Origin: Candidatus Scalindua sp.
GTDB lineage: Bacteria; Planctomycetota; Brocadiia; Brocadiales; Scalinduaceae
DNA: 32,000 nt
Direction of reading: 5' to 3'
Assembly: GCA_021777035.1 (NCBI GenBank)
Contig: JAIQZR010000192.1
Span: 185-32,184, forward strand
Part shown: in pieces, positions 585 to 32,000 of the stretch
Numbering within the stretch: position 1 is the stretch's first letter
Layout of the letters: every line of letters begins with the position of its first letter
Translations under genes and position numbers: made by a program
The notes under the pieces: generated by a model
The model's database searches: none
What the model was told of the DNA's origin: nothing
The model's input: the letters and a program-made list of their open reading frames with translations, nothing else

Positions 585-620
585 TTGACACAATATGCCT
601 TAGTAATTACAGTAATTACA
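585..620 (+). promoter_or_regulatory. Sigma70-like promoter with tandem palindromic operator for the toxin-antitoxin pair
   Basis: TTGACA (585-590), a 17-nt spacer, then TACAGT (608-613). A perfect tandem GTAATTACA GTAATTACA (603-620) overlaps the -10. Each unit contains the self-complementary octamer GTAATTAC. Confidence 0.45.
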
Positions 621-659
621 TTCTTATTTGCCTTTAACACTTCTGGAAAGGATAAAACG

Positions 660-932
660 GTGGAAAAACAAATACGAACTAAAGACATAAAACTAATTCC
701 CATTGGGAACTCTAAAGGAATTCGCTTGCCTAAAAACATTCTGCAAAAATATGGGTTCTCAGAATCTGTAGTGTTGGAAGAAAAAGAAGAGGGTGTTTTG
801 CTCCATAGGAAGGAAGACAGTAAACTAACATGGGAAGAAACTTTTAAGGCGATGTCTGAGGAAAAAGAAAATTGGGATGATCTTGATATAACTTTGATGG
901 ATGGATTGGAGGATGAACACCCTGGCTCCTAA
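660..932 (+). CDS. mazE: AbrB/MazE (SpoVT-AbrB) family antitoxin
   Basis: Carries the SpoVT/AbrB motif IKLIPIGNSKGIRLPKNILQKYGF and an acidic C-terminal tail. I prefer the GTG at 660, which lies 7 nt after GGAAAGGA at 645-652. The ORF-track start at 585 coincides with the -35 box. The 3' end overlaps the toxin gene. Confidence 0.7.
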   Translation: MEKQIRTKDIKLIPIGNSKGIRLPKNILQKYGFSESVVLEEKEEGVLLHRKEDSKLTWEETFKAMSEEKENWDDLDITLMDGLEDEHPGS

Positions 933-1248
933 GAGATATGAAATTTATTATGCTGATCTTAACCCTACAGTGGGCGGTGAAACAAAAAAAATTCGGCCTG
1001 TTGTTATTATTAGCCAGGATGCCATGAACCGGAATCTGGATACTGTTGTTGTTTGCCCTTTAACCAAAAAACTACATTATCAATGGCGAAGTCGCATGCA
1101 AATTCAGTGCTCTGGTCAGGATGCGGAAATTGCGGTTGATCAGATAAGAACAATTAGCAAAAACAGATTGAAACAAAAAGTTGATAAGCTATCAACGGAA
1201 GAATCTCTACAATTGAGACAACTTATTACAGATATGTATGGAGAATAA
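901..1248 (+). CDS. mazF: MazF/PemK family type II toxin (mRNA interferase)
   Basis: Family-typical N-terminal region YEIYYADLNPTVGGETKKIRPVVIISQDAMN...VVVCPLT and size (about 111-115 aa). It overlaps the upstream antitoxin by 20-32 nt. The start is ATG 901 or ATG 913. Confidence 0.75.
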   Translation: MDWRMNTLAPKRYEIYYADLNPTVGGETKKIRPVVIISQDAMNRNLDTVVVCPLTKKLHYQWRSRMQIQCSGQDAEIAVDQIRTISKNRLKQKVDKLSTEESLQLRQLITDMYGE

Positions 1249-3354: not shown

Positions 3355-6300
3355 TTATCTCTCAACCACCTTAGTTGTAACAGTATATTCTATGCCATCA
3401 CGCGTAAAAATTATCATAATCTCATTGCCTACCCGTAATGACTTTAAGACATCGGAAAAGGTTTCCAGATCTTCGATTGCGATTTCCCCGATACGTACAA
3501 TTATGTCACCCTTCTGAAGCCCGACTTTGTCTGCCGGAGAATCGATCGTCACACCGTCAAGCTGAACACCTTTACCGGTAAAATCATAGGCGGGAACAGT
3601 ACCAAGGACGACACGCCTTTTCTTATGTGACTGTTTTTTCTGTGGAGACAAACTCTCTTTTGCAACAGTTAGTGTTGAGGTCAAAGGTTCCGGCCTTGCG
3701 GCAAGGTACTCAACCGCTTCCTTTAAGACGGCAGCAGTCTTTACTAAACCTGCCGTATCTATTCTATCAACCGTATCAGTTGGACGATGATAGTTATCCC
3801 GCGCACCACTGAAGAGATGCACAGCAGGCACACCGGCATCGATAAAACTCTTCTCATCTCCGTTGCCAGTATCCAGAGTTGATTGTTTGATAGAGACTCC
3901 AGTCACATATCCTGCACCACGAAATATATGTACCCATTCGCTAGCAGAGTAATTACCAAAAATAGTTAGCGCATCATGACCTAACTGGCCAACTGTATCA
4001 AGATTGATCATCGCCATAATTTTAGAAACAGGATATTTTTCTGCATTCTTTACATAATGTATTGAACCGAGCTTGCCGGCTTCCTCAGCGCTGAAGGCTA
4101 CAAACACAATCGTGCGTTCTGGCTGCCATTTTTTACCAGCCAGTCGTGCAAATTCCAACAAGACGGATATCCCACTGGCATTGTCGTCTGCGCCAGGGTG
4201 GATTTTACCTTCGTTACCTGCAAGGCAATCAGGCCAACCCAAACCATGCGAATCATAGTGGGCTCCGATAACCACACTCTGCCCATCAAATTGAGAATTA
4301 TTGCCCGGTATAATTCCAATAACGTTCTGAACCGTAACAACATCATGCTCAGATATATCCACCTTTTCAGTCCAGGTTTGAAAATAATCATCCGACCTGT
4401 CTCCGCAAGGTTGTAAACCCGCATCAGAAAATTGCCTGGCGATATAGGCAGCAGCTTTATCCAGTCCCTCAGTCCCAAGTCCCCTTCCAGCCAGTTCGTC
4501 AGAAGCAAGGTATTCAATATCCTTTAACATTCTCGCCTCTGAAAAAAAAGGAGGCAGTTGCGCAAGGGCAGAACGTGGTTTCAGTTTGGCTGTTACCAGT
4601 TCAACTTCTTTACCATCTTCTTGAGAAATGGCAATGGACATGGGTGAATTGACTACAGGCCATTGCCCCTTGAAGACGTTGGCCGGCTCATCACCCGTAA
4701 AGCCAAGATAGCTATATTTATTGTAGTGTGGTAGTTTCCTTCCCAACCCAGGCATTGCGGCAATATTGTCAGTCGCCAGCCACGCCAGAGCATGGGCATT
4801 ATTAGACGGGTGACGCCCCATTATTACAACAGAATGTTTATCTCGTTTCATTTCAGTATTTTCGATAGATACACCACTCTCATTTTTGGCATACTCATAA
4901 TCGGATAGCGCATTGTTAAACATTGGACGAAAGCGATTTTCCCATCCAAACAACCATACTGCACGATCTGCCGGTAATTCTTCCAGTTCATTATCAAGCT
5001 TAATCTCCATGTTCACAGCACGGCCTTTCTGCCAACCTTTTGCCAATTCCTGATAGCCCAGACGGATTGATGCAGAGGTACTTGCAGGTAATACCACCAA
5101 TACCTGCTCTGCTCCAAATACCTGACTTAATGCCGGTGGACTTTCATTGTGATCTAATGTGCGAAAAATATCAAATTCAGGATCAACGTCCAGTTGCAAC
5201 GGACGCACAGGAAATTTTAGTTCCAGGTTGTACAGCTTTGCATCGACATTAATGGTTGTCTGGAACGCATTAGCGACCCCTTCCATGTGGACAGCAATTG
5301 GCAGTTTTAACAGATATGGCCCTGCTTCCTGTGTCTGTTCAATAACAGCTGACAGCACGTAACCATCGCCTTTTGGTTTAGCAACCGCCTGACTCACTTG
5401 CAAAGAGGGTGAACCAGTCCTCTTTACCCATTGTTCAAACATGGATTCCAAGGGTACATTGTTTACATTATTAAAGACCGTTTCTACATCATCAAAAGAA
5501 GCGAGCTTAAACTTATATTTTCTATAAAATCTATGAAGTGCTTTGACAAAGTCTTGATCTCCCAACTCCTGCCGAAGCATATGGAATAGCATCATGGTCT
5601 TACCATATCCTACGGCCTCTGTGACGGCACTATGCCGTGATCTAAATTTTGTCAGTGGAAAGTCCTTCTCCTTATTAGCAGTCACATAGTTCGTATATTT
5701 CTGGAGGACAGACCGACGGTATTCAACGGCCGCACCACGCTGCTCTTTAATAAGATGGTCAGCAAGATACGTTGTCAATCCCTCCGCCCAATTACCCTTT
5801 TCGTAATCAGTATATACCCCATTACCCCACCAGTTATGCAGAATTTCATGAGGATAAGAGGAATGAAGGATAAACGGAAAACGAATGACCCTGGAACCAA
5901 GAAGAGTGAATGAAGGCATGCCATAACCTGTCTCCCAGAAGTTCTCGACGAGTGCAAACTTACTGTAAGGATACGGGCCGAGGAGTTTCCGATACATCTC
6001 AAGATACTGTGCGGTTGTATCCAGGTATTTCTGCGCAAGTTGTGGATCAGGGTCTCGTAAGAAAGCCATTGCTTCCACTGCGCCAGCAGCCTGGTTATAT
6101 TCAGTAAACTCGGAAGATATCAGATATATCTCTTCCTGCGGTGTATCTGCCACCCATACATCACGTCTTGAGTCGGCACGGACATCACTCTTTTCACGTG
6201 TACCCTGACTCACAGACGACCACCCTGCCGGTAATTCAACATCCAGATTAAATGTTACCAGTTCATCTACAAAATGTGGATACCAGTAGGTTGATCCGCT

Positions 6301-6765
6301 TAAGAAAATACCTTCCGGGAAAATTATGCCGGGTGACACACTAAAACTGCGTGCGTATTCTTCACCATATTCCCTGACGGGATGATAGATCTCACCAGCG
6401 TATTTGATTGTAAACTGATTGGTTCCAGATGGGAGCTTTACTTCAAAAAGATCCATCTTAATATTACTATGTTGAAGTGACTGATTGTCGCTGAAAAATT
6501 GTCCGGCTTCAGCACCAAAGTTTTTTCTTAGTATGAGATCTTTATCTAAAATTTCAGGCCCGAGCCTCTGATGAAGCGTAAATCGAAGCGGCCCTGCTTT
6601 TAAGGACTCCTGATGCAAGGTTATTTGATCAACTACCTCAATCCGATGACTGTCCGGATCCAGCTTAACCTTAAGGTCATGGTTGATCTGTCCGAATGCT
6701 GTTGGTGATATAACCAGGACAAACAATGCGATCTGTAAAAAGCGCCAGAACAGTTGACAATTCAT
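3355..6765 (-). CDS. Secreted multidomain metallopeptidase: M1 (aminopeptidase N-like) + M28 aminopeptidase + C-terminal PDZ
   Basis: M1 gluzincin motif HEILHNWWGN followed by WAEGLTTY (HExxH-x18-E). M28 ligand motifs GAHYDSHG, GADDNASG, FSAEEAGKLGS, NLDTVG and YHRPTD. PDZ-like GVQLDGVTIDSPADKVGLQKGDIIVRIGE. I prefer the ATG at 6765, which follows GGAG and begins the signal peptide MNCQLFWRFLQIALFVLVISPTAFG. The ORF-track TTG at 6810 adds 15 aa. Confidence 0.8.
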   Translation of the reverse strand: MNCQLFWRFLQIALFVLVISPTAFGQINHDLKVKLDPDSHRIEVVDQITLHQESLKAGPLRFTLHQRLGPEILDKDLILRKNFGAEAGQFFSDNQSLQHSNIKMDLFEVKLPSGTNQFTIKYAGEIYHPVREYGEEYARSFSVSPGIIFPEGIFLSGSTYWYPHFVDELVTFNLDVELPAGWSSVSQGTREKSDVRADSRRDVWVADTPQEEIYLISSEFTEYNQAAGAVEAMAFLRDPDPQLAQKYLDTTAQYLEMYRKLLGPYPYSKFALVENFWETGYGMPSFTLLGSRVIRFPFILHSSYPHEILHNWWGNGVYTDYEKGNWAEGLTTYLADHLIKEQRGAAVEYRRSVLQKYTNYVTANKEKDFPLTKFRSRHSAVTEAVGYGKTMMLFHMLRQELGDQDFVKALHRFYRKYKFKLASFDDVETVFNNVNNVPLESMFEQWVKRTGSPSLQVSQAVAKPKGDGYVLSAVIEQTQEAGPYLLKLPIAVHMEGVANAFQTTINVDAKLYNLELKFPVRPLQLDVDPEFDIFRTLDHNESPPALSQVFGAEQVLVVLPASTSASIRLGYQELAKGWQKGRAVNMEIKLDNELEELPADRAVWLFGWENRFRPMFNNALSDYEYAKNESGVSIENTEMKRDKHSVVIMGRHPSNNAHALAWLATDNIAAMPGLGRKLPHYNKYSYLGFTGDEPANVFKGQWPVVNSPMSIAISQEDGKEVELVTAKLKPRSALAQLPPFFSEARMLKDIEYLASDELAGRGLGTEGLDKAAAYIARQFSDAGLQPCGDRSDDYFQTWTEKVDISEHDVVTVQNVIGIIPGNNSQFDGQSVVIGAHYDSHGLGWPDCLAGNEGKIHPGADDNASGISVLLEFARLAGKKWQPERTIVFVAFSAEEAGKLGSIHYVKNAEKYPVSKIMAMINLDTVGQLGHDALTIFGNYSASEWVHIFRGAGYVTGVSIKQSTLDTGNGDEKSFIDAGVPAVHLFSGARDNYHRPTDTVDRIDTAGLVKTAAVLKEAVEYLAARPEPLTSTLTVAKESLSPQKKQSHKKRRVVLGTVPAYDFTGKGVQLDGVTIDSPADKVGLQKGDIIVRIGEIAIEDLETFSDVLKSLRVGNEIMIIFTRDGIEYTVTTKVVER

Positions 6766-7212
6766 TATAAATTCTCCAGTTATTATGATTTTTAAACGCT
6801 CCCCGGACAAAAGACACCGGAGAGTGGTAAATATAGTTTTTATCGTTATTCTAATCCTTGACCTCCTATTATAATCTGAGGATTTTCACAATCTACTAAA
6901 TTGTCATTCCTATAACGCATTATCATAATTTATTATAATTAATGAAGTCACTGTCTACTGTAAAAATACTAAGTTTTTCAAGATTTGCGATAGCGATAAT
7001 CAAGAAATCAGTTGCTGATCCTTGAATCCCATTTTTACGACAGAAACTAGTTAGCCAATGCTGTATTTTAGCGTTTGGTTAAACGACTGATTATGTACAT
7101 TTTTTGTTAATAGATTGGACAATCAAACAGGTTTTTTTCCTTGTACTTTCGTATTTATTAACTAAAATAACCATGTTGTTCTTTCTCATGGAGGGGACGA
7201 GAATAATTCCCC

Positions 7213-11797: not shown

Positions 11798-12247
11798 ATG
11801 TTGAATTTTGAGGAAGTAAGAGAGTTGGTTCCTCAAAAATACCCATTCTTATTTATTGATAAAGTTGTTGAACTTCAAAAAGAAAGCAAAATTGTTTGTT
11901 TAAAAAATATAACGGCTAATGAGTCTTTCTTTACTGGACACTTCCCTGATTTTGCCATAATGCCTGGAGTTCTGATCGTAGAAGCCCTGGCGCAAGCCTC
12001 GATTATCCTCTTCAAAAAGAGCTTCGATACTGAGCAGTACAAAGATAAGATCTTTTTGTTGGCATCTGCTAACGTTCGGTTTTCAAAACCTGTTTTTCCT
12101 GGCGACCAGCTTTTTCTGGAAATTGAAATAGAAAAAGTAATTTCCAGTGCGGCAATAGTTAAGGGTGTGGCCAAAGTGGGAGACAAAGTTGTAACAAAGG
12201 CAACTTTGAGTTTTGGAGTTGCAAATAAAGATACATTAACGGGTTGA
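11798..12247 (+). CDS. fabZ: 3-hydroxyacyl-ACP dehydratase, FabZ family
   Basis: Hot-dog dehydratase signature FFTGHFPDFAIMPGVLIVEALAQ, with the catalytic His and Glu present. Confidence 0.9.
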   Translation: MLNFEEVRELVPQKYPFLFIDKVVELQKESKIVCLKNITANESFFTGHFPDFAIMPGVLIVEALAQASIILFKKSFDTEQYKDKIFLLASANVRFSKPVFPGDQLFLEIEIEKVISSAAIVKGVAKVGDKVVTKATLSFGVANKDTLTG

Positions 12248-12276
12248 AAATATGAATCTTCACAAAGTAAAGAACC

Positions 12277-13497
12277 ATGGATAAAAGAATTGTAATTACC
12301 GGTATGGGTGTAATTTCTCCCATAGGAAACGATAAAGATGCATTTTGGGATGCATTGATTTCCGGCACGTCCGGTGTTTCAGATGTCACATCATTTGACA
12401 CCTCGCCTTTCAAAGTACATAGAGGCTGTTTCGTTAAAGATTTCAATTATGATAATTATAAAAATAATGGTTCAAGTCGTGAAATTGGCAAAGGCTCACA
12501 ATTTGCGGTTGCAGCGGCAAAGCTGGCTATCGAAGACTCTAATATTGGTTTAAAGAATATTGATCCGGAAAGAGCTGGTGTTTCAATTGGAACAACTGCA
12601 GGAGAAATTCAGATTCTGGAAAAAGTGAACTATGTAAGACATGAAAAGGGAGAGGATAGTGTTGACCCTAGCTTGTTCCCTATGCATCCTTGCGTTAATA
12701 TGCCATCTAACATATCTATTGAATTTGGCTTTAAGGGACCAAGCACAATAATACCTACCGCATGTGCGGCTGGAAACTATGCAATCGGCTACGCATGTGA
12801 TTTGATAAAACTAGGAAGAGCCGATATAATGCTAGCCGGTGGATCAGATCCATTTTCTAAAGTAGCGTTTGTCGGTTTTAGTAGGTTAAATGCCATCGCG
12901 CCAGACATTTGTCAACCTTTTGACAAAAACAGAAAAGGCCTGTTAGTTGGCGAAGGCGCAGGAATGTTGGTATTAGAATCCCTCGAAGGTGCACTGGCCA
13001 GAAACGCAAATATTTATGCAGAAATCCTGGGTTACGGCTTGAGTTGTGATGGTTATCACATTACAATCCCGCACCCGGAAGGCAATGGCGTCACTTCTGC
13101 TATGAAAAAAGCCTTGAAAGATGCCAAAATTAGACCAGAAGATGTTCAGTATATGAGTGCGCATGGCACAGGAACAGTTGCCAACGACAAGGCCGAAACC
13201 ATATCGATAAAGAAGATCTTTGGCGAACATGCAAAAAATCTGGCCATAAGCTCTATAAAATCGATGCTTGGTCATACAATGGGAGCTGCCAGCGCCATTG
13301 AAGCAATTGCATGTGCTTTAGCTATAAAAGAAGGTGTTGTGCCGCCAACAATAAACTACGAAACAAAAGACCCTGAGTGCGATTTGGATTTTGTTCCAAA
13401 CGTTAAACGCGAAATGCAAGTCGATATTGCCATGAATAACGCATATGCTTTTGGTGGTAACAATAGTAGTCTCATACTCAAAAAGTTTACTGGTTAA
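12277..13497 (+). CDS. fabF: Beta-ketoacyl-ACP synthase II (FabF-type), catalytic triad intact
   Basis: Active-site Cys in PTACAAGN, and the two His in SAHGTGT and [12 protein letters not shown]. The C-terminus is the typical [14 protein letters not shown]. Confidence 0.9.
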
Positions 13498-13589
13498 GAA
13501 TTCAAAACTAAGATAGTGTTAATTTTCATACCGATATTAGAATTGTTCGGTTTAAAAAAGATTTTAAGTAAAAGAGGTTGGCAATTTAT

Positions 13590-14825
13590 ATGAATGGTCG
13601 TTTGGTCATAACAGGAATAAGCGTCTTATCGTCAATCGGAGAAAACCAGGATGAGTTCTGGACTAATTTGATCAATGGTGTTTCCGGGATAAAAGATATC
13701 ACGCTATTTGACGTCTCAAAATACAAAAGTAAAAAAGCTGGTGAAATATCAGATTTTGATGCTAAAGCATACTTAGGCAAAAAGGGGATTCGTCATATAG
13801 ACAGGACATCGCTATTGGTATCTTCGGCGGCAAAACTTGCCATGGACGATGCTAATATCACCCACGAAACTTACAGTGCCGATGAACTGGGAATAGTAAT
13901 CGGATCAACGTATGGCAGTATTGACAGTATCGGTTCATTCGATCTGGAGGGATTAAAGGAAGGTCCAACTTTCGTAAATCCCATGGATTTTCCAAACACT
14001 GTCCTTAATGCACCAGCAAGTAGGGTATCTATTTTCTGTAATGCTACCGGTTTAAATTCTACAATTTCTACAGGAACTGCCAGTGGATTGGATGCTATCA
14101 TTTATGCCTCTGATTTTTTAAGACTAGGCAGAGGAAAAGCCGTATTAGCCGGTGGAGTCCATGGTTTAACTCCGGACATTTTCTGGGGAGCTTACAGATC
14201 AGGAGTATTGTCGGCCAGCAGTAACGGTGGTATAGAAATATCCTCTCCATTTGATAAAAGACGCAACGGTTTCATAATTGGAGAGGCGTCGGCGTTACTG
14301 GTAATAGAAAGACTTGATGACGCACGGGAAAGAAATGCTAAGATCTATGCCGAGATAAAGGGATACGGAAGCACATTTAACCCTGACAAGATTTCTCATG
14401 ACAACATTGATACCACTCAAGGCGTAAGATGCATATCTACAGCAATGAAAGACGCCGGGATTAATTCTGACGAAGTTTCTTACATATCCGCATGCGCTAA
14501 TTCCAGTGTGACCGGAGACAAAATGGAAGCTAAAATTATTAGAGACTATTTTGGTGATAACGCTGATAATGTCCCTGTAAGTGCTATAAAATCAATGACA
14601 GGAGAATGCCTGGACGCATCAGGGTCACTACAGAGCGTTGCTGGTGTATTGGCAATTAATAATAGTATTATCCCTCCAACAATTAACTATCAGGAAAAAG
14701 ATGAAGAGTGTAATCTGGATTGTGTTCCAAACAATAGCAGAAAATCTGAAGTTAAAAATGTACTTATCAACTCCTTTTCCGATACAGGCAACATTTCTTC
14801 CTTAATCATCTCAAAATATTCATAA
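13590..14825 (+). CDS. Ketosynthase-like protein lacking the Cys-His-His triad (chain-length-factor-like partner)
   Basis: Aligns with the upstream KS along its whole length. PTACAAGN becomes STGTASGL (Cys to Thr). SAHGTGT becomes SACANSS (His to Cys). KSMLGHTMG becomes KSMTGECLD (His to Glu). I prefer the ATG at 13590; the ORF-track TTG is at 13578. Confidence 0.85.
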   Translation: MNGRLVITGISVLSSIGENQDEFWTNLINGVSGIKDITLFDVSKYKSKKAGEISDFDAKAYLGKKGIRHIDRTSLLVSSAAKLAMDDANITHETYSADELGIVIGSTYGSIDSIGSFDLEGLKEGPTFVNPMDFPNTVLNAPASRVSIFCNATGLNSTISTGTASGLDAIIYASDFLRLGRGKAVLAGGVHGLTPDIFWGAYRSGVLSASSNGGIEISSPFDKRRNGFIIGEASALLVIERLDDARERNAKIYAEIKGYGSTFNPDKISHDNIDTTQGVRCISTAMKDAGINSDEVSYISACANSSVTGDKMEAKIIRDYFGDNADNVPVSAIKSMTGECLDASGSLQSVAGVLAINNSIIPPTINYQEKDEECNLDCVPNNSRKSEVKNVLINSFSDTGNISSLIISKYS

Positions 14826-14844
14826 CTTCATAGCGACAGTTTCC

Positions 14845-16278
14845 ATGAGTAATTTCTCCCTGAACAAATCTGAAATAAAATCTAAGTATGACGTAATTGT
14901 ACTGGGAGCTGGGATTGCCGGACTAATCTGCGGAACTTTCCTGGCAAAACAGGGAAAGAAAGTTCTAATTATTGAACAACATAGTATTCCCGGAGGTTAT
15001 TGTACTTCTTTTAAGAGAAAAGGTTTTATCTTTGATGCCGCTGTCCATCATATTGGTGGGTGTGGAAAATGGAGCGTAGTTGGTAGGTGCCTTAAAGAAC
15101 TCGATATAAATATTAATTTTCTACGGCTTGATCCTATGGACAGCATCCATTTTCCTTCATTTTCAGTGGAAATACCTGCTGATATTGACGATTATGTAGA
15201 TCTGTTGAAGGAACGGTTTCCATCAGAAAGTAAAAAAATATCACTTTTCTTTAAAGAATTTATTAGACTATACAGGGCTACATTTAGCACAGATGAGCAT
15301 GAAATGCTTATCAAATACCAAGACCTTACTTATAAAGAAATGCTGGAGAACTTTTTTACTGATGAGCAGCTTAAGATGACTTTATCTGCACAGTGGGGAT
15401 ACATTGGTTCACCACCACATGAGGTTTCGGCTATTGGTATGTGCCAGATGTTAGTAAATTATCTAAAAGACGGAGCCTATTTCCCCGTCGGTGGTACCCA
15501 GAATTTTGCCGATGCAATCACTCAAAAATTTATTGACTATGGCGGCCACATTATGCTATCTTCTAGCGTTGAGACGATTTCCACAGATAGTAATATTATA
15601 AAAGGAGTTACAACGAATAAAGGGGGAGAAATTATGGCTGATACCTTTGTGTCAAATATTGATCCCAAACAAACCTTTTTGCGCTTGTTAGACAAAAATA
15701 CCGTTGATAGCTCATTTCTACACAGGATCGAGAACATGAAAGAAAGCGTTTCATTCTTTTTACTATACCTTGGCCTTGACAATAGAGTAGACTTAAAAAA
15801 GTTAAAAAGGGGTTTTTACCATACATCAAATAACTTAAGCGCTTCTGATAGTGATTGGTTTTATATTTCCGTTCCCACGGAGGTTGATTCAAGCTTGGCA
15901 CCTGATAATAAACAGATAATATCTGTTGTTGTCTCTTCAAGGGATAGTTACGACGACATAGACAATTGGGACACGTACAAAGATAAAATGAAAAAATACA
16001 CATTAAATTACCTGGAAAATTTTGTACCCGATATTCAGAATCATATTGTTGTAACTGACGCTGCCACGCCTAAAACTCTATATCGTTATACACACAACTC
16101 AAAAGGCGCAGCTTATGGCGGGGCCGTTACCGTAGACCAAACATGGTCAAATAGACTTCCACACACAACACCCTTCAAAAATCTTTTTCTAGCGGGGCAC
16201 TGGACAAATCCGGGTCCAGGAATATGTGCGGTTGTATCCTCTGGTTGGAGGGTAGCTAATATGATTTTAAATAATTAG
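14845..16278 (+). CDS. Phytoene-desaturase-like (CrtI/CrtD family) FAD-dependent oxidoreductase
   Basis: N-terminal dinucleotide fold YDVIVLGAGIAGLICGTFLAKQGKKVLIIEQHSIPGGYC. C-terminal FAD motif LFLAGHWTNPGPGICAVVSSG. Confidence 0.85.
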   Translation: MSNFSLNKSEIKSKYDVIVLGAGIAGLICGTFLAKQGKKVLIIEQHSIPGGYCTSFKRKGFIFDAAVHHIGGCGKWSVVGRCLKELDININFLRLDPMDSIHFPSFSVEIPADIDDYVDLLKERFPSESKKISLFFKEFIRLYRATFSTDEHEMLIKYQDLTYKEMLENFFTDEQLKMTLSAQWGYIGSPPHEVSAIGMCQMLVNYLKDGAYFPVGGTQNFADAITQKFIDYGGHIMLSSSVETISTDSNIIKGVTTNKGGEIMADTFVSNIDPKQTFLRLLDKNTVDSSFLHRIENMKESVSFFLLYLGLDNRVDLKKLKRGFYHTSNNLSASDSDWFYISVPTEVDSSLAPDNKQIISVVVSSRDSYDDIDNWDTYKDKMKKYTLNYLENFVPDIQNHIVVTDAATPKTLYRYTHNSKGAAYGGAVTVDQTWSNRLPHTTPFKNLFLAGHWTNPGPGICAVVSSGWRVANMILNN

Positions 16279-16290
16279 GAGGATAACAAT

Positions 16291-17757
16291 ATGAGAAAAA
16301 TGATGCTGATAAACCCACATCCCCCTGGAAGGCATGGCGAGGAGAGCATATCTGTCATAGTCCAAATGCCTTTAAACCTGGCATACATTGCAGCCCTTAC
16401 ACCGGGTGACTGGGAGTTTGATGTAATCGATGAAAATATAGAGCTGGCCCTTGATGATAATGGAGATATTACATTTGAGCCGGTAGATATGGTTTGTATT
16501 ACTTCTGTTACCTATCAAGTGTCTAGAGCTTACAAGATTGCAGAGATCTGCAGAAAAAAAGGCATGACCGTAGTCATGGGTGGCATACACGCTTCAGTAG
16601 TACCTGAAGAAGCTTCAAAATATGTAGATGCAATTTTTATCGGAGAGGCCGAAACACTGTGGCCACAAGTCATTAAAGATTTTGAAAATGGCGAACTCAA
16701 AAAGAGGTACGAAGGCGGGCTGCCAGGCCTGTCAGAAATGAAACATGTATTTCCGAATAGGGAACTCCTGAAAAAGAAATATGATTACAAGTTATCATCA
16801 ATTGTTACAACTAAAGGTTGTCCAAATTACTGCGATTTCTGTAGCGTACCAACCTTTCAAGGGAAAAAGTATAGAGAAAGACCGTATGAAGATGTTCTAG
16901 ACGAGATGGAAGCCACTGACTACAAGGGCCTGATGTTTGCCGAAGATAATTTTTATGGCCATAGTAAGAACTCTGCCAACAGAGCAAAAGCCCTCTTTCG
17001 TGGAATGATAGAAAGGGGCATTAAAAAGGACTGGCTTGGATTTACTGCACTCAATATATCAAAGGATGCAGAGGTACTTGACCTGATGGCGAAAAGTGGA
17101 AATTTTGGTTTTCTCTGCGGAATAGAATCGACAAATGAGGCTGTTCTGGAGAAGATGAATAAAACTACTAATTTAAGGATTGGGGCTGATAATTATTATG
17201 ACAGCGTTCAGAAAATCCATGATCATGGTCTTGTTGTTTGGGGGTCAATTGTCCTTGGAGCAGATGGTGATGATAAAGATTCCTTCAAAAGAATGACAGA
17301 GTTTGTATTGGAAAACAATATAGACGTACTTACCTTTGGTATTAATTGCCCGTTTCCAAAGACTGCGCTTTATGATAGACTGGATTCTGAAAAGAGGATC
17401 TTCAGAAAGAATTATCCTGAAGACTGGAAATATTATGATACTGCGCATGTTGTTCACAGACTAGTTGATATGACATTAGAGGATTTCATTGAAGGTATGC
17501 AATATATGTATGACCACCTATATGCCGCCGACAATCTGAGGCTGAGATTTAGGAAATCACTACAAACTATTGGCAGTACGACTCACGGCAAACGTAATGC
17601 TATGTTCGGCTTCAGGGTTGGTTCTGATTGGATACAGGTATTTGAACAAGTACTGGAAAATCTTCGTCTACTATACGATTCAGGTGATTACTACAAGGAT
17701 TGGTATAAGAGCAGTGCCGTTACTGTACCATCGGGTAAAGGTGTCGCGGTAAGTTAG
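16291..17757 (+). CDS. B12-binding-domain radical SAM enzyme (class B, DUF4070-type C-terminus)
   Basis: N-terminal cobalamin-binding-like domain (MMLINP...VVMGGIHASV...IGEAE). Radical SAM cluster motif GCPNYCDFC (CxxxCxxC). AGGAGG lies 7 nt before the ATG, which is 12 nt after the desaturase stop. Confidence 0.85.
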   Translation: MRKMMLINPHPPGRHGEESISVIVQMPLNLAYIAALTPGDWEFDVIDENIELALDDNGDITFEPVDMVCITSVTYQVSRAYKIAEICRKKGMTVVMGGIHASVVPEEASKYVDAIFIGEAETLWPQVIKDFENGELKKRYEGGLPGLSEMKHVFPNRELLKKKYDYKLSSIVTTKGCPNYCDFCSVPTFQGKKYRERPYEDVLDEMEATDYKGLMFAEDNFYGHSKNSANRAKALFRGMIERGIKKDWLGFTALNISKDAEVLDLMAKSGNFGFLCGIESTNEAVLEKMNKTTNLRIGADNYYDSVQKIHDHGLVVWGSIVLGADGDDKDSFKRMTEFVLENNIDVLTFGINCPFPKTALYDRLDSEKRIFRKNYPEDWKYYDTAHVVHRLVDMTLEDFIEGMQYMYDHLYAADNLRLRFRKSLQTIGSTTHGKRNAMFGFRVGSDWIQVFEQVLENLRLLYDSGDYYKDWYKSSAVTVPSGKGVAVS

Positions 17758-26561: not shown

Positions 26562-26860
26562 GTTGTATAGATGTGTCGAAATAATTAAAACCATTATTGT
26601 TACCATGTTTTTTGTATTCGTCAAGGAAAAACTTCACATTTTTTATTTTTAAAAGCTTCCTGAGCAAGTCTCGTTTATTCATACATACTTATAGCTTGAC
26701 TTTGTTGTTTCACAGAAGTATTTTATGTTGACGACAAAAAGACAAACAGTTGGAATCGCGTACCTTTTCATTTCGCAGACGGGTTTCTTTAAACGGTAAA
26801 GTATCATGAAATGTAATTAGTGAGGTCAGGACAATTGAATCTAAATACGGAGAGATTAAT

Positions 26861-27268
26861 ATGGGTTTAGCTGGTTCAGCATTCAAAGATGTTGGAAAAG
26901 AGTTTCCAAAAGGCACCACATTATTTAAAGAAGGCGATGAAGGCAAGGAAATGTTCCTGATAAATTCAGGTGAGGTTAAATTGATCAGAAAAACTTCACA
27001 GGGCGATGTGGTGTTGGCCAGATTGGGCTTCGGTGAATTCTTCGGAGAAATGTCCGTAATTACAAACCAGAAAAGAACCGTTACCGCTGAAACAGTAACT
27101 GATTGTCGATTGAATATCATAACTAAAGATATATTAGAAACATTAGTGGCCGGTAAGCCTTTAGTCGCGCTGAGCATTCTAAAAAAGTTAATGTTCAGAC
27201 TGGAAAATGCATACGACACTATAGAAGATCTTTATGTCAAACACATTAAAAATGATAAAGCAAAGTAG
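26861..27268 (+). CDS. Stand-alone cyclic-nucleotide-binding (CAP effector) domain protein, no output domain
   Basis: cNMP-binding motifs LFKEGDEGKEMFLINSGEVKL and GEFFGEMSVI...RTVTAETVTDC. It is 135 aa with no HTH. GGAGAG lies upstream of the ATG. Confidence 0.75.
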   Translation: MGLAGSAFKDVGKEFPKGTTLFKEGDEGKEMFLINSGEVKLIRKTSQGDVVLARLGFGEFFGEMSVITNQKRTVTAETVTDCRLNIITKDILETLVAGKPLVALSILKKLMFRLENAYDTIEDLYVKHIKNDKAK

Positions 27269-27280
27269 CCTATTTCAAAA

Positions 27281-27556
27281 ATGAAGATCAATGAAGACTT
27301 TGTACCCGTGACGAAGGAATGCGTTGAGATTGAGGAACTTGATGATGGCTGCATACTCTATGATACAAAAAAAGATGAAGTGCACAGCTTAAATAGCACT
27401 GCGGCTTCTGTCTGGTTATGCTGTGATGGAAATCATGCAATAAAGGAAATAGCGGACGTTGTAGAAACATGTTTAGAGTCTGAAAGAAAGCCGATATTGA
27501 GGGATATAATAAAAATCATAAATGATTTCTCAAAAAAAGGACTTTTAACACCATAG
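27281..27556 (+). CDS. PqqD-family protein (RiPP recognition element-like peptide/carrier chaperone)
   Basis: Typical PqqD layout: ELDDGCILYDTKKDEVHSLNSTAASVWLCCDGNHAIKEIADVV. It is 91 aa and starts 12 nt after the preceding gene. Confidence 0.75.
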   Translation: MKINEDFVPVTKECVEIEELDDGCILYDTKKDEVHSLNSTAASVWLCCDGNHAIKEIADVVETCLESERKPILRDIIKIINDFSKKGLLTP

Positions 27557-27601
27557 GCATTGTACCGTCCGGCACAATGTCTATTTTACATACCGATTTT
27601 T

Positions 27602-28435
27602 ATGTATACACTACATTACAAACTCCAATCACACCGGTTCTCTATACAGACAGCAAACAAAAAACTTGCAGGTTTATGTTCGCAGCTCTATCCAACTTCC
27701 AGATCTAAACGCAACGGATATGCTGATATTGTTTACTCACTGAAAATGAGAAACGATAGCGCTACAGGTGTGGTTTATGAGGTCCTTGTCAACGGCAACA
27801 AAAAACATCAAACTAGTATAAAATCAGGACTATTTTCTTCACTCGAATGGATGATTACATGCAATGCATTGTCACATCTTCGCGAGTTCCTCCAATTGCA
27901 CGCAGGAGCTGTCGTAAAGGAGGGTAAAATCATACTTCTACCTGCAAACCACGGCTCAGGAAAGACGACCTTAACGTTAAATCTTACCAAAAATCGTTAT
28001 CGCTGCCTCTCCGACGATATTGTCTTAATTGGGCCTGAAACAACCAAGATTATTCCTTTCCCACGAAGCTTTCTTATAAAAGACAAATCAATCAAAAAAC
28101 TGGCGGAATCCCATTTAATAGATAAAAAGAGTGGTTACTATTGTAAATCAGACGACATTTTATACTATAATCCCTATTCCACGAAAGGGCCATCTATCGG
28201 AAATGCAAAACCGTATGCGATAATCGAATTAAAACACAACCACCGTTTCAAAAACGAACTGATACCGGCCAGCAAATCACAGATGTGTATTCAACTATTA
28301 AAACAGTCGTTTAACATTCACCACTACAAACGTAGCGGAGTCTCTATACTGACAAAGCTGGTCAGAAACTGTAAGTGCTATTCTTTGAAGACAAACAATG
28401 TAACAGATGCTGTTCGCCTGGTCTCTCAAATATGA
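27602..28435 (+). CDS. HprK-related P-loop kinase
   Basis: LHAGAVVKEGKIILLPANHGSGKTTLTLNL...LSDDIVLI resembles the HPr kinase C-terminal catalytic domain family. The start is uncertain, either ATG 27602 or TTG 27560. Confidence 0.7.
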   Translation: MYTLHYKLQSHRFSIQTANKKLAGLCSQLYPTSRSKRNGYADIVYSLKMRNDSATGVVYEVLVNGNKKHQTSIKSGLFSSLEWMITCNALSHLREFLQLHAGAVVKEGKIILLPANHGSGKTTLTLNLTKNRYRCLSDDIVLIGPETTKIIPFPRSFLIKDKSIKKLAESHLIDKKSGYYCKSDDILYYNPYSTKGPSIGNAKPYAIIELKHNHRFKNELIPASKSQMCIQLLKQSFNIHHYKRSGVSILTKLVRNCKCYSLKTNNVTDAVRLVSQI

Positions 28436-29628
28436 ACGAACCAACTACTAAAAGATATATTGCCAGGTTACTGAACATTAAGAGAGGAGAAGACGGTATT
28501 GATGAAGTATACAATACATTAGAATCAATAGGATGGAATGAAATTATTAATATTGCCCAGGAACATCGCGTAATGACATTTCTGTTTTATAAAATAAAAC
28601 ATCTCGGACTGGAAGAGAGACTAGGGACGGAAACCCTCCAGGTTATGTCACTCAAATATCAAAAAGGAGTGGCGAAAAATGTTGTTACCAGGCATGTGCT
28701 AAAGGACATAATTCAATCGTTAAATCAATACGGCATAAAAGCCGTCATTCTGAAGGGTGCAATAAATTTCTGTGAAAATATTTATGAAAACTGGAATTTA
28801 AGATCAATGGAAGACTTGGACATTCTCATTAAAGAAGAGGATTTTCCTGTTGCAAGACAATGCATGAAAACTGCGGGACTACAGCATGTAGAAGGACAAA
28901 TCCCTCACGACCTCAGCGAAGATTTTCAAGGCAGGGGTATAGCCGTTGATATGCATTATCTACCGATCCATGAAAAACACATTTACCTTTTTGATATGAA
29001 TTCCTTCTGGTCAAACACCATGTGCGTAGAAATGAACAGTCTTAAAATGCACATTCCCAGCCCGACAGACCAAATCTACCACAAGTTTATTCACGACGTA
29101 ATACGACACCAGGAATTAGTAAATTTCAGAATTCAGAATTTGTGTGATTTTGTAAATATCTCCCAATATTACAAAGACAGGATAGACTGGAAAGAGATAT
29201 TACGCAGAACCAGGAAGAACGGTATTGAATCTTTATTTAAGTTTCACTGTTGGCAGATCAAGAAAAATCTTGAAACAGAGCTGCCGGAGCCAATAAACAA
29301 CCTGAGTAATGATAGTGTTAAGTGCTACGAAAAATGGTACAACCAACTAAGCGGATGCCCGGAGAGACTAAAATCTGCAAGCGAACGCCTCATTGTTATC
29401 CTGGCCAAGAGCAGCAATAATTTTGGACACCTTAAGCACTCATTTAATGTCCTTGTGAGAGAGTCAGTCATTAACGAATCTGGTGGACTCCTGCTCTCCA
29501 CATACAACATTAAGAAAAGAAAATATCTGTTACCATTCATTCGTACAATACACCTGGCCAGGATCCTCTTTCTACACATCCTGATTATCGCCTATCTCGC
29601 CAAACAGCGCTTGTATACACACAAATAG
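28432..29628 (+). CDS. Nucleotidyltransferase family protein (PF14907 / NTP_transf_5-like)
   Basis: Core sequence VILKGAINFCENIYENWNLRSMEDLDILIKEEDF (KG...R..DxDxL). The ATG at 28432 overlaps the kinase stop as ATGA, which suggests translational coupling. The ORF-track start at 28375 is less likely. Confidence 0.7.
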   Translation: MNEPTTKRYIARLLNIKRGEDGIDEVYNTLESIGWNEIINIAQEHRVMTFLFYKIKHLGLEERLGTETLQVMSLKYQKGVAKNVVTRHVLKDIIQSLNQYGIKAVILKGAINFCENIYENWNLRSMEDLDILIKEEDFPVARQCMKTAGLQHVEGQIPHDLSEDFQGRGIAVDMHYLPIHEKHIYLFDMNSFWSNTMCVEMNSLKMHIPSPTDQIYHKFIHDVIRHQELVNFRIQNLCDFVNISQYYKDRIDWKEILRRTRKNGIESLFKFHCWQIKKNLETELPEPINNLSNDSVKCYEKWYNQLSGCPERLKSASERLIVILAKSSNNFGHLKHSFNVLVRESVINESGGLLLSTYNIKKRKYLLPFIRTIHLARILFLHILIIAYLAKQRLYTHK

Positions 29629-31205: not shown

Positions 31206-32000
31206 CTGAATAAAAAGCTGCTATTAGTACTCCCTGACAGTCAACGCGGTTATTGGGGGAAGGTATCGAGAAGCGGGAAGGCCGGGTTTGTACGCATGGC
31301 ACTTCCAACGATTGCAGCCCTGACACCATCTGACTGGGATGTCGAGATCCATGACGCACGTACAACTCCCGTAGACTATAACATAAATGTTGACCTTGTT
31401 GGTATTACTTCCTATACAGCAGATATAACAAATGCCTGTAAGATAGCTGACGGGTACAGAAACAATGGAATAAAGGTCGTTATGGGAGGGGTTCATGTAT
31501 CCGCGCTTCCTGGCGAGGCGCTACAACATGCTGACGCTGTTGTCGTGGGCGAGGCAGAAGCTGTGTGGAAAAAACTGCTTCGTGATTGTGAAAAAGGCGA
31601 ATTAAAAGCAATCTATAAAAGCGGTTCATTAATAGAAATGGCTGATATGGCTATACCACGCCGAAATCTGCTGGACAGCAGTATGTATTCATCTTTTTAT
31701 TCCGTTCAGGCCACACGCGGATGCCCATTTAATTGCGAGTTCTGCACCGTTACTGCTTTTTTTGGACAAGAGTTCAGGGTGAGACCAGTGGAAGAGGTTA
31801 TTGAGGAGATCAAAGGATTTGACTCTAAAGAGTTCTTTTTTATCGATGATAACATCACGGGACGATCCGGTTTTGCCAAGAAGCTATTTAAGGAGCTTAT
31901 TCCCTTAAATCGCAAATGGGGTGGACAGACAACACTAAACTTTGCTAAAGATGAGGAGCTACTTTCATTGTACGCTAAAAGCGGCGGTAGATATGCCTTT
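31206..32000 (+). CDS. B12-binding-domain radical SAM enzyme, paralogue of 16291-17757; 3' end beyond the window
   Basis: My translation reads ...KKLLLVLPDSQRGYWGKVSRSGKAGFVRMALPTIAALTPSDW...VVMGGVHVSALPGEA...VGEAEAVW...ATRGCPFNCEFCTV... It aligns block by block with the first radical SAM. The frame is open from 31167 and the first ATG is at 31296. The conserved N-terminus requires an earlier start, probably CTG 31206, 5 nt after GGAGG (31196-31200). Confidence 0.75.
   Translation, partial: MNKKLLLVLPDSQRGYWGKVSRSGKAGFVRMALPTIAALTPSDWDVEIHDARTTPVDYNINVDLVGITSYTADITNACKIADGYRNNGIKVVMGGVHVSALPGEALQHADAVVVGEAEAVWKKLLRDCEKGELKAIYKSGSLIEMADMAIPRRNLLDSSMYSSFYSVQATRGCPFNCEFCTVTAFFGQEFRVRPVEEVIEEIKGFDSKEFFFIDDNITGRSGFAKKLFKELIPLNRKWGGQTTLNFAKDEELLSLYAKSGGRYAF

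What the first reader, a model, noticed from the sequence alone, without database searches (positions are those of the whole stretch)
26861..29628. cNMP-binding protein - PqqD - HprK-like kinase - nucleotidyltransferase cassette with no visible substrate gene
Four co-directional genes have gaps of 12 nt and about 45 nt (3 nt if the kinase starts at TTG 27560) and an ATGA stop/start overlap. PqqD-like proteins present peptides or carrier-bound substrates to modifying enzymes. HPr-kinase-like kinases and PF14907 nucleotidyltransferases are known as tailoring enzymes in some lasso-peptide clusters, where they phosphorylate and further decorate the C-terminal Ser. A PqqD + HprK-related kinase + nucleotidyltransferase trio has also been catalogued, as I recall, only as an uncharacterised conserved cassette. 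Here there is no lasso cyclase, no B2 protease and no obvious precursor ORF. Instead a stand-alone cyclic-nucleotide sensor leads the block. That suggests a second-messenger-gated phosphorylation/nucleotidylylation system acting on an unknown peptide or protein.
Basis: partly seen in the sequence, partly recalled or inferred. Interest (0 to 1): 0.75.

Follow-up and report, generated by a model that had tools for sequence, protein, structure and literature searches.

The report
Cyclic-nucleotide sensor plus peptide-tailoring trio
An anammox (Scalindua) bacterium carries a tight four-gene operon: a small cyclic-nucleotide-binding protein followed by a peptide-docking protein, an HPr-kinase-like kinase and a nucleotidyltransferase, the enzyme trio that phosphorylates and decorates ribosomal peptides in other bacteria, but here with no substrate gene nearby.

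Summary
Four co-directional genes (cNMP-binding 26861-27268, PqqD 27281-27556, kinase 27602-28435, PF14907 nucleotidyltransferase 28432-29628) have 12-nt and 45-nt gaps and an ATGA overlap. All four are under purifying selection. They stay together in 13 further Scalindua genomes, although the downstream flank varies.

The PqqD-kinase-transferase trio is not new. It is a divergent relative of NCBIfam's uncharacterised "HPr-rel-A system". It uses the same enzyme set as the Bacillota LPP peptides (Popov 2026) and as paeninodin/pseudomycoidin lasso tailoring. The three enzymes also occur fused in one polypeptide elsewhere.

In all eight other lineages I examined, the trio sits next to a gene for a small protein with a twin-arginine-signal-like leader and a hypervariable C-terminus. 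In four lineages the leader carries a [Y/W]xxP docking motif. This protein is the likely substrate. No such gene lies in the window or within 10 kb of the cassette in 13 related Scalindua loci.

The cNMP-binding gene is found only in this Scalindua clade. Its cAMP/cGMP-contact residues are invariant. Gating of the trio by a cyclic nucleotide is plausible but untested. No lasso genes are present.

Verdict: a new variant of a known kind, of moderate interest.

The parts
26625..26860 (+). Intergenic region between divergent rpoZ and the cNMP gene; presumed promoter region of the block.
   Evidence: A weak sigma-70-like match lies at 26696-26724, but the scan as a whole is not above shuffled expectation. 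No Rfam match. No conserved small ORF in this spacer in the window or the eight related loci whose spacer was checked.
26861..27268 (+). Stand-alone cyclic-nucleotide-binding (CNB) domain protein of 135 aa. It has a beta-barrel and a C-helix but no output domain.
   Evidence: PF00027 at 81.5 bits. The best solved relatives are PKG, PKA and CRP CNB domains. The phosphate-binding cassette FGEMSVITN..RT..AE is invariant in 11 orthologues, and dN/dS is 0.05-0.075. The gene lies 12-19 nt upstream of PqqD in the 11 orthologous loci measured.
27281..27556 (+). PqqD-family RiPP-recognition-element (peptide-docking) protein, 91 aa.
   Evidence: PF05402 at 45.3 bits. The nearest NCBIfam models are ScmD and lasso-PqqD; TIGR04353 scores only 17 bits against a cutoff of 35. 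The only PDB sequence hit is the lasso leader-binding protein TfuB1, 6jx3_B, E 9e-4. It is 58% identical to the PqqD of Scalindua AMX11, which has a YxxP-leader partner in cis.
27602..28435 (+). HPr-kinase-like P-loop kinase, 277 aa. The alternative TTG start at 27560 is not supported by orthologues.
   Evidence: TIGR04352 at 102.8 bits against a cutoff of 200. H100, G120-K121 and D138 are invariant across 47 diverse homologues. The AF2 model has pLDDT 89.7. Foldseek matches ATP-PEPCK at E 3.5e-7 and HprK/P at E 7e-4. A profile search hits solved HprK at E 7.5e-5.
28432..29628 (+). PF14907 (NTP_transf_5) nucleotidyltransferase-fold enzyme, 398 aa. Its start overlaps the kinase stop (ATGA).
   Evidence: PF14907 at 139.4 bits. 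LKG107-109, R124, D128-x-D130, H175, H221, D239 and R371 are invariant across 7 distant homologues. Its relatives are fused to the kinase in P0187, P0206, P0298 and P0324, and to both PqqD and kinase in L028.

Best explanation
The block is a Scalindua-lineage version of a widespread peptide-tailoring module, with a cyclic-nucleotide sensor added as its first gene.

Shown: the four genes exist. They are tightly spaced, co-directional, conserved as a unit and under purifying selection. PqqD, kinase and transferase keep the residues expected for a leader-docking domain, a P-loop Ser kinase and a DxD nucleotidyltransferase-fold enzyme. These three proteins occur as single fused polypeptides elsewhere. 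In every other lineage examined the trio lies beside a gene for a small protein with a twin-arginine-signal-like leader (RR-x-[F/L/A/M]-[L/M/I]; where the proline segment is present, it reads P-[V/A/I/T]-[V/I/L/F]-x-[S/T/A/G]-[F/L/I]) followed by an AxA-type site and a hypervariable C-terminal part.

Inferred:
1. PqqD docks on the leader of such a protein. In this branch the leader is of the [Y/W]xxP type.
2. The kinase phosphorylates a Ser in the variable part.
3. The PF14907 enzyme then decorates the phosphate. In the one case with a phenotype the decoration is hexose.
4. The product is exported and the leader is removed.

In the window's clade the substrate gene must lie elsewhere in the genome. 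The 135-aa CNB protein, translated from the same transcript, most likely couples the module's activity to cAMP/cGMP through protein-protein contact, because it has no DNA-binding or enzymatic domain.
For: - Layout and domains.
- The four-gene block recurs in 13 species-level Scalindua genomes, with at least six unrelated downstream arrangements. One upstream insertion, in L019, leaves cNMP next to PqqD.
- dN/dS is 0.05-0.30 for all four genes, and the cNMP phosphate-binding cassette is invariant.
- Kinase catalytic motifs and fold. Transferase DxD and other invariant residues.
- Fusions: PqqD-transferase-kinase in L028 and kinase-transferase in four of four long hits tested.
- The trio occurs in Nitrospinota, actinobacteria-like, Casimicrobiaceae, Sphingomonas, Vibrio and other loci.
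- A signal-like partner lies next to the trio in eight of eight of these lineages. Two reciprocal look-ups that started from the partner landed on the trio.
- The window's PqqD has as its only solved-structure match the lasso leader-binding TfuB1.
- Precedents: PsmK phosphorylates the C-terminal Ser, and the PF14907-like PsmN is required for hexose on that phosphate (PMC6993621). In LPP, RRE, HprK-like kinase and NTP-transferase act on precursors with a YxxPxV leader and variable C-termini (PMC13381572).
Against: - No substrate-like ORF lies in the window or within 10 kb in 13 related loci, so the substrate step is unverified for this organism.
- The CNB gene was absent from every non-Scalindua locus examined and from the Scalindua AMX11 branch. 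Its conservation is therefore within one genus-level clade, where the neighbouring rpoZ/ABC genes are equally syntenic.
- No cyclase gene lies nearby.
- The kinase and PqqD score below the curated HPr-rel-A cutoffs.
- The chemistry of PF14907 is unknown. LppN was inactive in a heterologous host (PMC13381572).
- Two orthologous loci show a truncated kinase (L014) or a split transferase (L010). This could be decay or an assembly error.
Confidence: 0.5

Rival explanations
1. The trio is a peptide-tailoring module as above, but the cNMP-binding gene is only an inherited neighbour or co-transcribed passenger. It has no role in the module.
For: The CNB gene was found only in one Scalindua clade. It is absent from all eight other lineages examined and from the AMX11 branch. 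The upstream rpoZ/ABC genes are as syntenic as the CNB gene. CNB proteins are common in these genomes; other cNMP_binding genes occur in L001 and L010.
Against: The gap is 12-19 nt on the same strand, with no terminator-like site. The adjacency survives an upstream insertion and many downstream rearrangements. The CNB gene has the strongest purifying selection of the four.
Confidence: 0.3
2. The CNB protein has replaced the leader-bearing partner and is itself the substrate. It would be phosphorylated or decorated by the kinase and transferase, much as HPr is by HprK.
For: The CNB gene occupies the slot directly upstream of PqqD. The partner gene holds this slot in Nitrospinota, Casimicrobiaceae, L032 and Sphingomonas. 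No other substrate gene lies in cis.
Against: The CNB protein has no RR leader and no [Y/W]xxP motif (alignment). The window's PqqD is 58% identical to the AMX11 PqqD, which has a YxxP-leader partner. This argues for the same kind of ligand. The partner's position is not fixed in other lineages.
Confidence: 0.07
3. The trio acts on a non-peptide molecule, such as a polysaccharide or lipid precursor. The neighbouring signal-bearing proteins would then be unrelated exported proteins of exopolysaccharide loci.
For: Many loci sit among polysaccharide or PEP-CTERM genes. The AMX11 locus inserts PS decarboxylase, a spermine-synthase-like gene, ACP, an AMP-ligase and glycosyltransferases between the kinase and the transferase.
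Against: PqqD-family proteins of this type are peptide-docking domains, as the TfuB1 match shows. The partner is adjacent in eight of eight lineages and has RiPP-like architecture, with a conserved leader and hypervariable remainder. SET and PRMT-like protein methyltransferases and VKOR-DsbA are fused or adjacent. Characterised homologues modify peptides (PMC6993621, PMC13381572).
Confidence: 0.08
4. This is an ordinary lasso (or other RiPP) tailoring set whose cyclase, protease and precursor lie just beyond the window end.
For: I could not read DNA beyond position 32000. A B12-binding radical-SAM gene starts at about 31206.
Against: No Asn-synthase-like or transglutaminase-like gene lies in the 32 kb, nor in the annotated neighbourhoods of related loci or the L009 downstream genes scanned. 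The downstream flank differs among close relatives, and M20 and the radical-SAM gene are not conserved with the block. Genome-scan hits to the kinase gave no lasso context.
Confidence: 0.03

Closest known systems
Linear Polyphosphorylated Peptides (LPP) of Bacillota (Popov et al., Nat Commun 2026, PMC13381572)
   Same: [quoted passage not shown] LPP precursors are 35-200 aa, with a conserved N-terminal leader containing YxxPxV and a hypervariable C-terminus. The leader is removed by a type-I signal peptidase. The clusters lie in polysaccharide loci, and the biological role is unknown. The partner proteins I found beside relatives of this cassette have the same architecture.
   Different: LPP is described as restricted to Bacillota. 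It is defined by a dedicated SipW-like peptidase and an MsbA-like exporter, and neither is in the window. The leaders here look like twin-arginine signals with AxA sites. The window has no precursor in cis and adds a cNMP-binding protein.
Paeninodin / pseudomycoidin lasso tailoring (PadeK/PsmK kinase, PsmN transferase; PMC6993621, PMC8498205)
   Same: These clusters contain an HPr-kinase homologue that phosphorylates a precursor Ser. A PF14907-type enzyme with a DxD motif is needed for the further phosphate-linked decoration. A PqqD-like B1 protein is also present.
   Different: The window has no macrolactam synthetase, B2 protease, precursor or ABC exporter. The substrate residue is unknown, because the partners in related loci do not consistently end in Ser.
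NCBIfam 'HPr-rel-A system' (TIGR04352 HprK-related kinase A, TIGR04353 PqqD family peptide chaperone, plus a nucleotidyltransferase)
   Same: The gene trio and order are the same, and TIGR04352 is the best-scoring curated model for the kinase. Bona fide examples (L027, L035) also carry a PF14907 gene and a signal-like partner.
   Different: The window's kinase (102.8 against 200 bits) and PqqD (17 against 35 bits) are below the cutoffs. The window's PqqD resembles ScmD and lasso RREs instead. The canonical partners lack the aromatic residue before the Pro. The system itself has no published function that I could find.
SynChlorMet cassette ScmC/ScmD (TIGR04249/TIGR04248; PF27840)
   Same: It pairs an HprK-like protein with a PqqD-like protein. 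ScmD is the top NCBIfam hit for the window's PqqD, and PF27840 is precomputed on homologues of the kinase.
   Different: The scores are far below the cutoffs (22.7 against 125 and 30.9 against 100 bits). No radical-SAM/SPASM partner is conserved with the block.
Tat signal-peptide-binding chaperones (TorD, DmsD, NapD); analogy only, from my own knowledge
   Same: A small cytoplasmic protein would hold a twin-arginine leader until maturation of the cargo is complete.
   Different: The folds and families are unrelated. Nothing here tests Tat dependence.

Membership tests
LPP RiPP family (PMC13381572) | Discrete RRE (PqqD-like) gene | tested here: met
   PF05402 at 45.3 bits; TfuB1 match.
LPP RiPP family (PMC13381572) | HprK-like kinase gene | tested here: met
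   TIGR04352 at 102.8 bits; P-loop, His and Asp conserved; PEPCK/HprK fold.
LPP RiPP family (PMC13381572) | Uncharacterised NTP-transferase gene | tested here: met
   PF14907 at 139.4 bits. That LppN belongs to PF14907 is my inference from the paper's wording.
LPP RiPP family (PMC13381572) | SipW-like type-I signal peptidase (LppS) in the cluster | tested here: not met
   No such domain in any window ORF scanned or in the annotated Scalindua neighbourhoods.
LPP RiPP family (PMC13381572) | MsbA-like exporter in the cluster | tested here: not met
   The only transporter nearby is a divergently transcribed ABC-2/GldG-type set that is syntenic with rpoZ.
LPP RiPP family (PMC13381572) | Precursor gene(s) in cis with a YxxPxV leader | tested here: not met
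   None in the window or in 13 related loci. Precursor-like genes are present, with an RR...[Y/W]xxP leader, in AMX11-type Scalindua, Nitrospinota, actinobacteria-like and L026/L029 loci.
NCBIfam HPr-rel-A system | Kinase reaches the TIGR04352 equivalog cutoff (200 bits) | tested here: not met
   102.8 bits. For comparison, P0115 scores 395 bits.
NCBIfam HPr-rel-A system | PqqD reaches the TIGR04353 cutoff (35 bits) | tested here: not met
   17.1 bits. For comparison, the L027 PqqD scores 38.2 bits.
NCBIfam HPr-rel-A system | PqqD-kinase-nucleotidyltransferase gene trio | tested here: met
   same order as in Sphingomonas L035.
Lasso peptide biosynthetic cluster | Asn-synthetase-like macrolactam synthetase (C) and transglutaminase-like protease (B2) | tested here: not met
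   Absent from all window ORFs of 100 aa or more that I scanned. The region beyond 32000 could not be read.
Cyclic-nucleotide-binding (CAP/PKA-type) domain | Beta-barrel with phosphate-binding cassette G-E-x...R-[ST] | tested here: met
   PF00027 at 81.5 bits. FGEMSVITN..RT is invariant in 11 orthologues.
Cyclic-nucleotide-binding (CAP/PKA-type) domain | Actual binding of cAMP or cGMP | not testable with these tools
   Needs ITC, DRaCALA or a similar assay.
CRP/FNR transcription factors | C-terminal helix-turn-helix DNA-binding domain | tested here: not met
   The protein ends after the C-helix at residue 135, and its length is conserved at 134-138 aa. CRP models match only the N-terminal half.
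Known anti-phage defence systems (PADLOC) | Match to a defence-system protein model | tested here: not met
   The CNB domain alone cross-matches Pycsar/TIR effector models at 16-34 bits. There are no hits for PqqD, kinase or transferase.

The most novel reading that the evidence does not exclude
In marine anammox bacteria a stand-alone cAMP/cGMP receptor directly switches a leader-dependent peptide phosphorylation and decoration machine. For example, it could control whether the winged-helix PqqD can dock a trans-encoded, twin-arginine-leader peptide. That would make this the first second-messenger-gated RiPP-like maturation pathway. It would also reveal that LPP-type chemistry exists far outside Bacillota and uses general export signals as leaders.
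Probability: 0.15. Interest if true: 0.8.

Novelty: new variant of a known kind. Interest (0 to 1): 0.55.

Why it matters
The kinase family is very large. A profile search found 4,073 50%-identity clusters at E<=1e-30. It has no assigned function outside a few Bacillota clusters.

Two results make the family experimentally approachable. First, a leader-bearing partner gene recurs beside the cassette. Second, this Scalindua clade has swapped the cis-encoded partner for a cyclic-nucleotide receptor.

If the leaders are real export signals that double as RiPP leaders, this would link general protein export with peptide maturation. If the receptor gates the enzymes, it would be a new kind of output for bacterial cNMP signalling, and it would occur in an uncultured, biogeochemically important group.

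Tried and rejected
A three-sequence alignment worked but returned mainly Scalindua.
- A metagenome scan with the AMX11-type partner alignment found nothing, because the tool chose N-terminal patterns. A hand-made degenerate DNA pattern found two short contigs, L030 and L031. There the partner-like gene sits beside a PilB/MshE-type ATPase, not the kinase. I could not establish their organism.
- Look-ups of the window's own transferase and PqqD, intended to read beyond position 32000, returned 'not on record'.
- A single-sequence AlphaFold model of the transferase was unusable (pLDDT 42.8), so I ran no fold search on it. No solved homologue exists by sequence.
- PADLOC gave only CNB-domain cross-hits, so I rejected the defence-system reading.
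- Rfam and the promoter/terminator scans gave no signal.
- I considered the M20 amidohydrolase (29642/29720-30910) and the B12 radical-SAM gene (from about 31206) as members of the system. I rejected both because they are not conserved with the block.
- HD-GYP proteins lie near the cassette in both Nitrospinota and some Scalindua loci, but they share only domain-level similarity. This is at best a weak hint of a second-messenger theme.
- I considered the CNB protein as the substrate and ranked it low, because it has no leader motif.
Full report
**1. What is in the sequence**

- The cNMP gene runs 26861-27268.
- PqqD runs 27281-27556, after a 12-nt gap.
- The kinase ends at 28435.
- The transferase ATG at 28432 overlaps the kinase stop as ATGA, and the gene ends at 29628.

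The kinase start is ATG 27602, which gives a 45-nt gap. All orthologues align from that Met. The PqqD-kinase spacer ranges from 45 to 364 nt in relatives, so the TTG-27560 extension is not conserved.

The HMM searches confirm the domain calls.

| Protein | Model | Score (bits) | Cutoff (bits) |
|---|---|---|---|
| cNMP-binding | PF00027 | 81.5 | 27.5 |
| PqqD | PF05402 | 45.3 | 23.4 |
| Transferase | PF14907 | 139.4 | 31.2 |
| Kinase | TIGR04352 "HprK-related kinase A" | 102.8 | 200 |

TIGR04352 is the best model for the kinase, but the score is below its equivalog cutoff. The PqqD scores best against ScmD and lasso-type PqqD models. It reaches only 17 bits against the HPr-rel-A PqqD model, whose cutoff is 35.

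There is no + strand terminator-like hairpin inside the block and no Rfam element.

**2. The organism and the surroundings**

Kinase homologues at 70-100% identity come from Candidatus Scalindua and Brocadiales metagenome bins.

Upstream, on the other strand, lie rpoZ, an ABC-2/GldG/DUF4340 set and MoxR. Further upstream, at 11.8-17.8 kb, is a cluster of FabZ, KS, KS, an amine-oxidase-like gene and a B12 radical-SAM gene, which I recall as the type proposed for ladderane-lipid synthesis.

Downstream lie an M20 amidohydrolase and, running off the window, another B12 radical-SAM gene.

No Asn-synthetase-like cyclase, transglutaminase-like protease or SipW-like peptidase is present among the window ORFs I scanned.

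**3. Is the block a unit?**

A scan of one genome per species returned 17 loci.
- Thirteen Scalindua/Brocadiales representatives carry cNMP, PqqD and kinase after rpoZ. Where the contig continues, the transferase follows.
- Identities to the window are 73-90% (cNMP), 68-78% (PqqD), 71-82% (kinase) and 66-77% (transferase).
- dN/dS against five orthologues is 0.05-0.075 (cNMP), 0.10-0.30 (PqqD), 0.14-0.18 (kinase) and 0.18-0.24 (transferase). All four genes are maintained by selection.
- Conserved synteny stops at the transferase stop codon. At least six unrelated gene sets follow it. M20 follows only in the window and its two closest relatives, and the radical-SAM gene follows in none.
- In S. 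rubra (L019) a nitroreductase gene is inserted between rpoZ and cNMP. The cNMP gene stays next to PqqD.
- Two loci show a kinase with an internal stop (L014) or a split transferase (L010). This could be decay or an assembly error.

**4. The trio outside this clade**

The cNMP gene was absent from every locus examined outside this clade, but PqqD, kinase and transferase recur.

| Lineage / locus | Arrangement |
|---|---|
| Scalindua AMX11/SCAELEC01 | Kinase 54% identical to the window's; transferase 4 kb away, after PS decarboxylase, TPR and a spermine-synthase-like gene; ACP, AMP-ligase and glycosyltransferases follow the transferase |
| Nitrospinota | A PRMT-like methyltransferase lies between kinase and transferase |
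| Actinobacteria-like | PqqD-AhpC fusion; one 1,098-aa PqqD-transferase-kinase fusion |
| High-GC lineage (L026, L029) | Transferase-SET fusion and VKOR-DsbA |
| Casimicrobiaceae; a further PEP-CTERM-associated lineage | Plain trio |
| Sphingomonas and Vibrio plasmids | PGAP names the genes "HPr-rel-A system PqqD family peptide chaperone" (Sphingomonas only), "HprK-related kinase A" and "nucleotidyltransferase family protein" |

A profile of 47 kinases finds 4,073 50%-identity clusters at E<=1e-30. Four of four long hits tested are kinase-PF14907 fusions. The fusions show that the three proteins work together.

- Kinase: H100, G120-K121 and D138 are invariant.
- Kinase model: pLDDT is 89.7, and it matches ATP-PEPCK (E 3.5e-7) and HprK/P (E 7e-4).
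- Transferase: the LKG...R...DxD...H...H...D...R set is invariant. DxD corresponds to the motif whose mutation inactivates PsmN (PMC6993621).

**5. A recurrent partner**

In all eight other lineages the cassette lies beside a gene for a small protein of 64-270 aa.
- Its N-terminus reads [S/T/G]-R-R-x-[F/L/A/M]-[L/M/I] and is followed by a weakly hydrophobic stretch. In seven of the eight lineages that stretch ends in P-[V/A/I/T]-[V/I/L/F]-x-[S/T/A/G]-[F/L/I]; the Sphingomonas partner lacks the Pro at that position.
- An AxA-type site follows about 25-33 residues after the RR.
- The remainder of the protein is unrelated between lineages. It consists of PSK repeats in the AMX11 type and P0170. 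It is charged with "HPSKKKK" in Nitrospinota. It is Cys-rich in actinobacteria. It is knottin-like in L026/L029. In the canonical group it is a larger domain with C..S.MSGNAS..C.

Two look-ups that started from the partner led back to the trio. Only generic Tat-signal models touch these proteins: PF10518 at 28.7 bits on P0161 and TIGR01409 at 24.6 bits on the Nitrospinota protein. No curated family covers them.

In the four lineages whose PqqD is of the ScmD/lasso type, the residue three positions before the Pro is Tyr or Trp. This is the [Y/W]xxP motif that discrete RREs bind (PMC13381572). In the canonical group that position is not aromatic, and where the PqqD was scored (L027) it is of the TIGR04353 type.

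The window's PqqD belongs to the first type. Its only solved relative is the lasso leader-binding protein TfuB1.

**6. The window lacks that partner**

Profile and pattern searches of every reading frame of the window and of 13 related loci (10 kb on each side of the cassette) found nothing better than E about 0.7.

A near-identical leader does exist on two short low-GC metagenome contigs, next to a PilB/MshE-type ATPase. I could not tell whether those contigs come from this clade.

**7. The cNMP protein**

It is a complete CNB barrel plus C-helix with nothing attached. The phosphate-binding cassette (G-E...R-T) is invariant. The best solved relatives are PKG, PKA and CRP domains.

It has no leader motif, so it is a poor candidate for RRE-mediated modification.

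Three things suggest that it functions with the trio: translation from the same transcript, a conserved 12-19-nt spacing, and the strongest purifying selection in the block. All of that evidence comes from one genus-level clade, however, and no cyclase gene is nearby.

**8. Comparison with what is known**

The enzyme trio is the tailoring set of paeninodin/pseudomycoidin lasso clusters. There the kinase phosphorylates a precursor Ser, and the PF14907-type PsmN is needed for hexose on the phosphate (PMC6993621, PMC8498205).

Since 2026 it is also the core of the Bacillota LPP family. [quoted passage not shown] Its precursors carry a YxxPxV leader. The family is described as restricted to Bacillota, and its final product and role are unknown (PMC13381572).

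The window meets three of the six LPP features and fails three: peptidase, exporter and cis precursor. It also fails the curated HPr-rel-A cutoffs.

It therefore works like these systems but is not a member of any of them as currently defined. Full-text searches found no paper on the HPr-rel-A cassette, on Tat-like leaders with PqqD, or on a cNMP link.

**9. Verdict**

The module itself is a known kind. Three things are new:
- the cNMP-receptor gene at the head of the operon;
- the loss of the cis-encoded substrate in this clade;
- from related loci, a candidate substrate class with export-signal-like leaders across many phyla.

The mechanism in this organism remains inferred.

Noticed in passing
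window 11798-17757: Co-directional FabA/FabZ-like, two ketoacyl synthases, an amine-oxidase/phytoene-desaturase-like flavoprotein and a B12-binding radical-SAM enzyme. From memory, this gene set has been proposed for ladderane-lipid synthesis in anammox bacteria.
   Followed up: no
window 31206-32000 (runs off the end): A second B12-binding radical-SAM gene (CPFNCEFC motif) lies about 300 nt after the M20 gene. It is not found next to the cassette in any related locus.
   Followed up: partly
window 585-1248: A MazE-like antitoxin and PemK/MazF-like toxin pair with overlapping ORFs.
   Followed up: no
L028 3217-6513 (- strand): A single 1,098-aa protein carries PqqD, PF14907 and HprK-like (ScmC) domains. 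It is divergent from a 166-aa Cys-rich protein with an RR leader. A WhiB gene is nearby, so the host is probably an actinobacterium.
   Followed up: partly
L026 6391-10882 and L029 1667-6220: A PF14907-SET-domain fusion, a 97-102-aa partner with a conotoxin/knottin-like Cys pattern, a VKOR-DsbA fusion, PqqD and the kinase. This suggests a disulfide-rich exported product.
   Followed up: partly
L005 6477-13065, L007 2313-9120: Nitrospinota loci read: AAA_22 ATPase, HD-GYP protein, FlgO-like protein, 77-82-aa RR-leader protein, PqqD, kinase, PRMT-like methyltransferase, PF14907. In L005, Wza/Wzc-type polysaccharide export genes follow.
   Followed up: partly
L011 12057-13557, L015 7938-9077, L010 11671-11949, L014 12057-12335 (- strand): In some main-clade Scalindua loci the genes convergent on the transferase are a 92-aa protein and a GAF-HD-GYP protein. 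The N-terminus of the 92-aa protein (KVGEYLVREGHITEYILQEALTIQ) looks like the c-di-GMP-binding MshEN motif, but Pfam gave no hit. HD-GYP also neighbours the Nitrospinota cassettes, with only domain-level similarity.
   Followed up: partly
L030 845-1150, L031 320-655: Metagenome contigs carry a 93-108-aa protein whose leader (RRSFLKKLLISAAYITPVILSFSIRD) nearly matches the AMX11 partner. It has a very basic tail. It sits between a protein with MshEN-like repeats and a PilB/MshE-type ATPase rather than beside the kinase.
   Followed up: partly
L019 9634-10001: The PqqD-kinase spacer of S. rubra is 364 nt and contains two copies of a palindromic element (GCATTTTGCT[C/T]CGCAAAATGA). It looks like a small inserted repeat.
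   Followed up: no
L014 10001-10831; L010 10578-11638: The kinase of L014 has an in-frame stop after codon 118, and the transferase of L010 aligns in two separated pieces. These are either pseudogenes or assembly errors.
   Followed up: no
L036 (Crinalium epipsammum plasmid pCRI9333.04): A cyanobacterial plasmid has an ABC-transporter ATPase, a PF14907-like transferase, a TPR protein, glycosyltransferases, a methyltransferase and a gene annotated 'HPr kinase'. This is another layout of the same enzymes.
   Followed up: no
window 3355-6810 (- strand): A 1,151-aa protein combines M1-like and M28 peptidase domains with a C-terminal PDZ domain.
   Followed up: no
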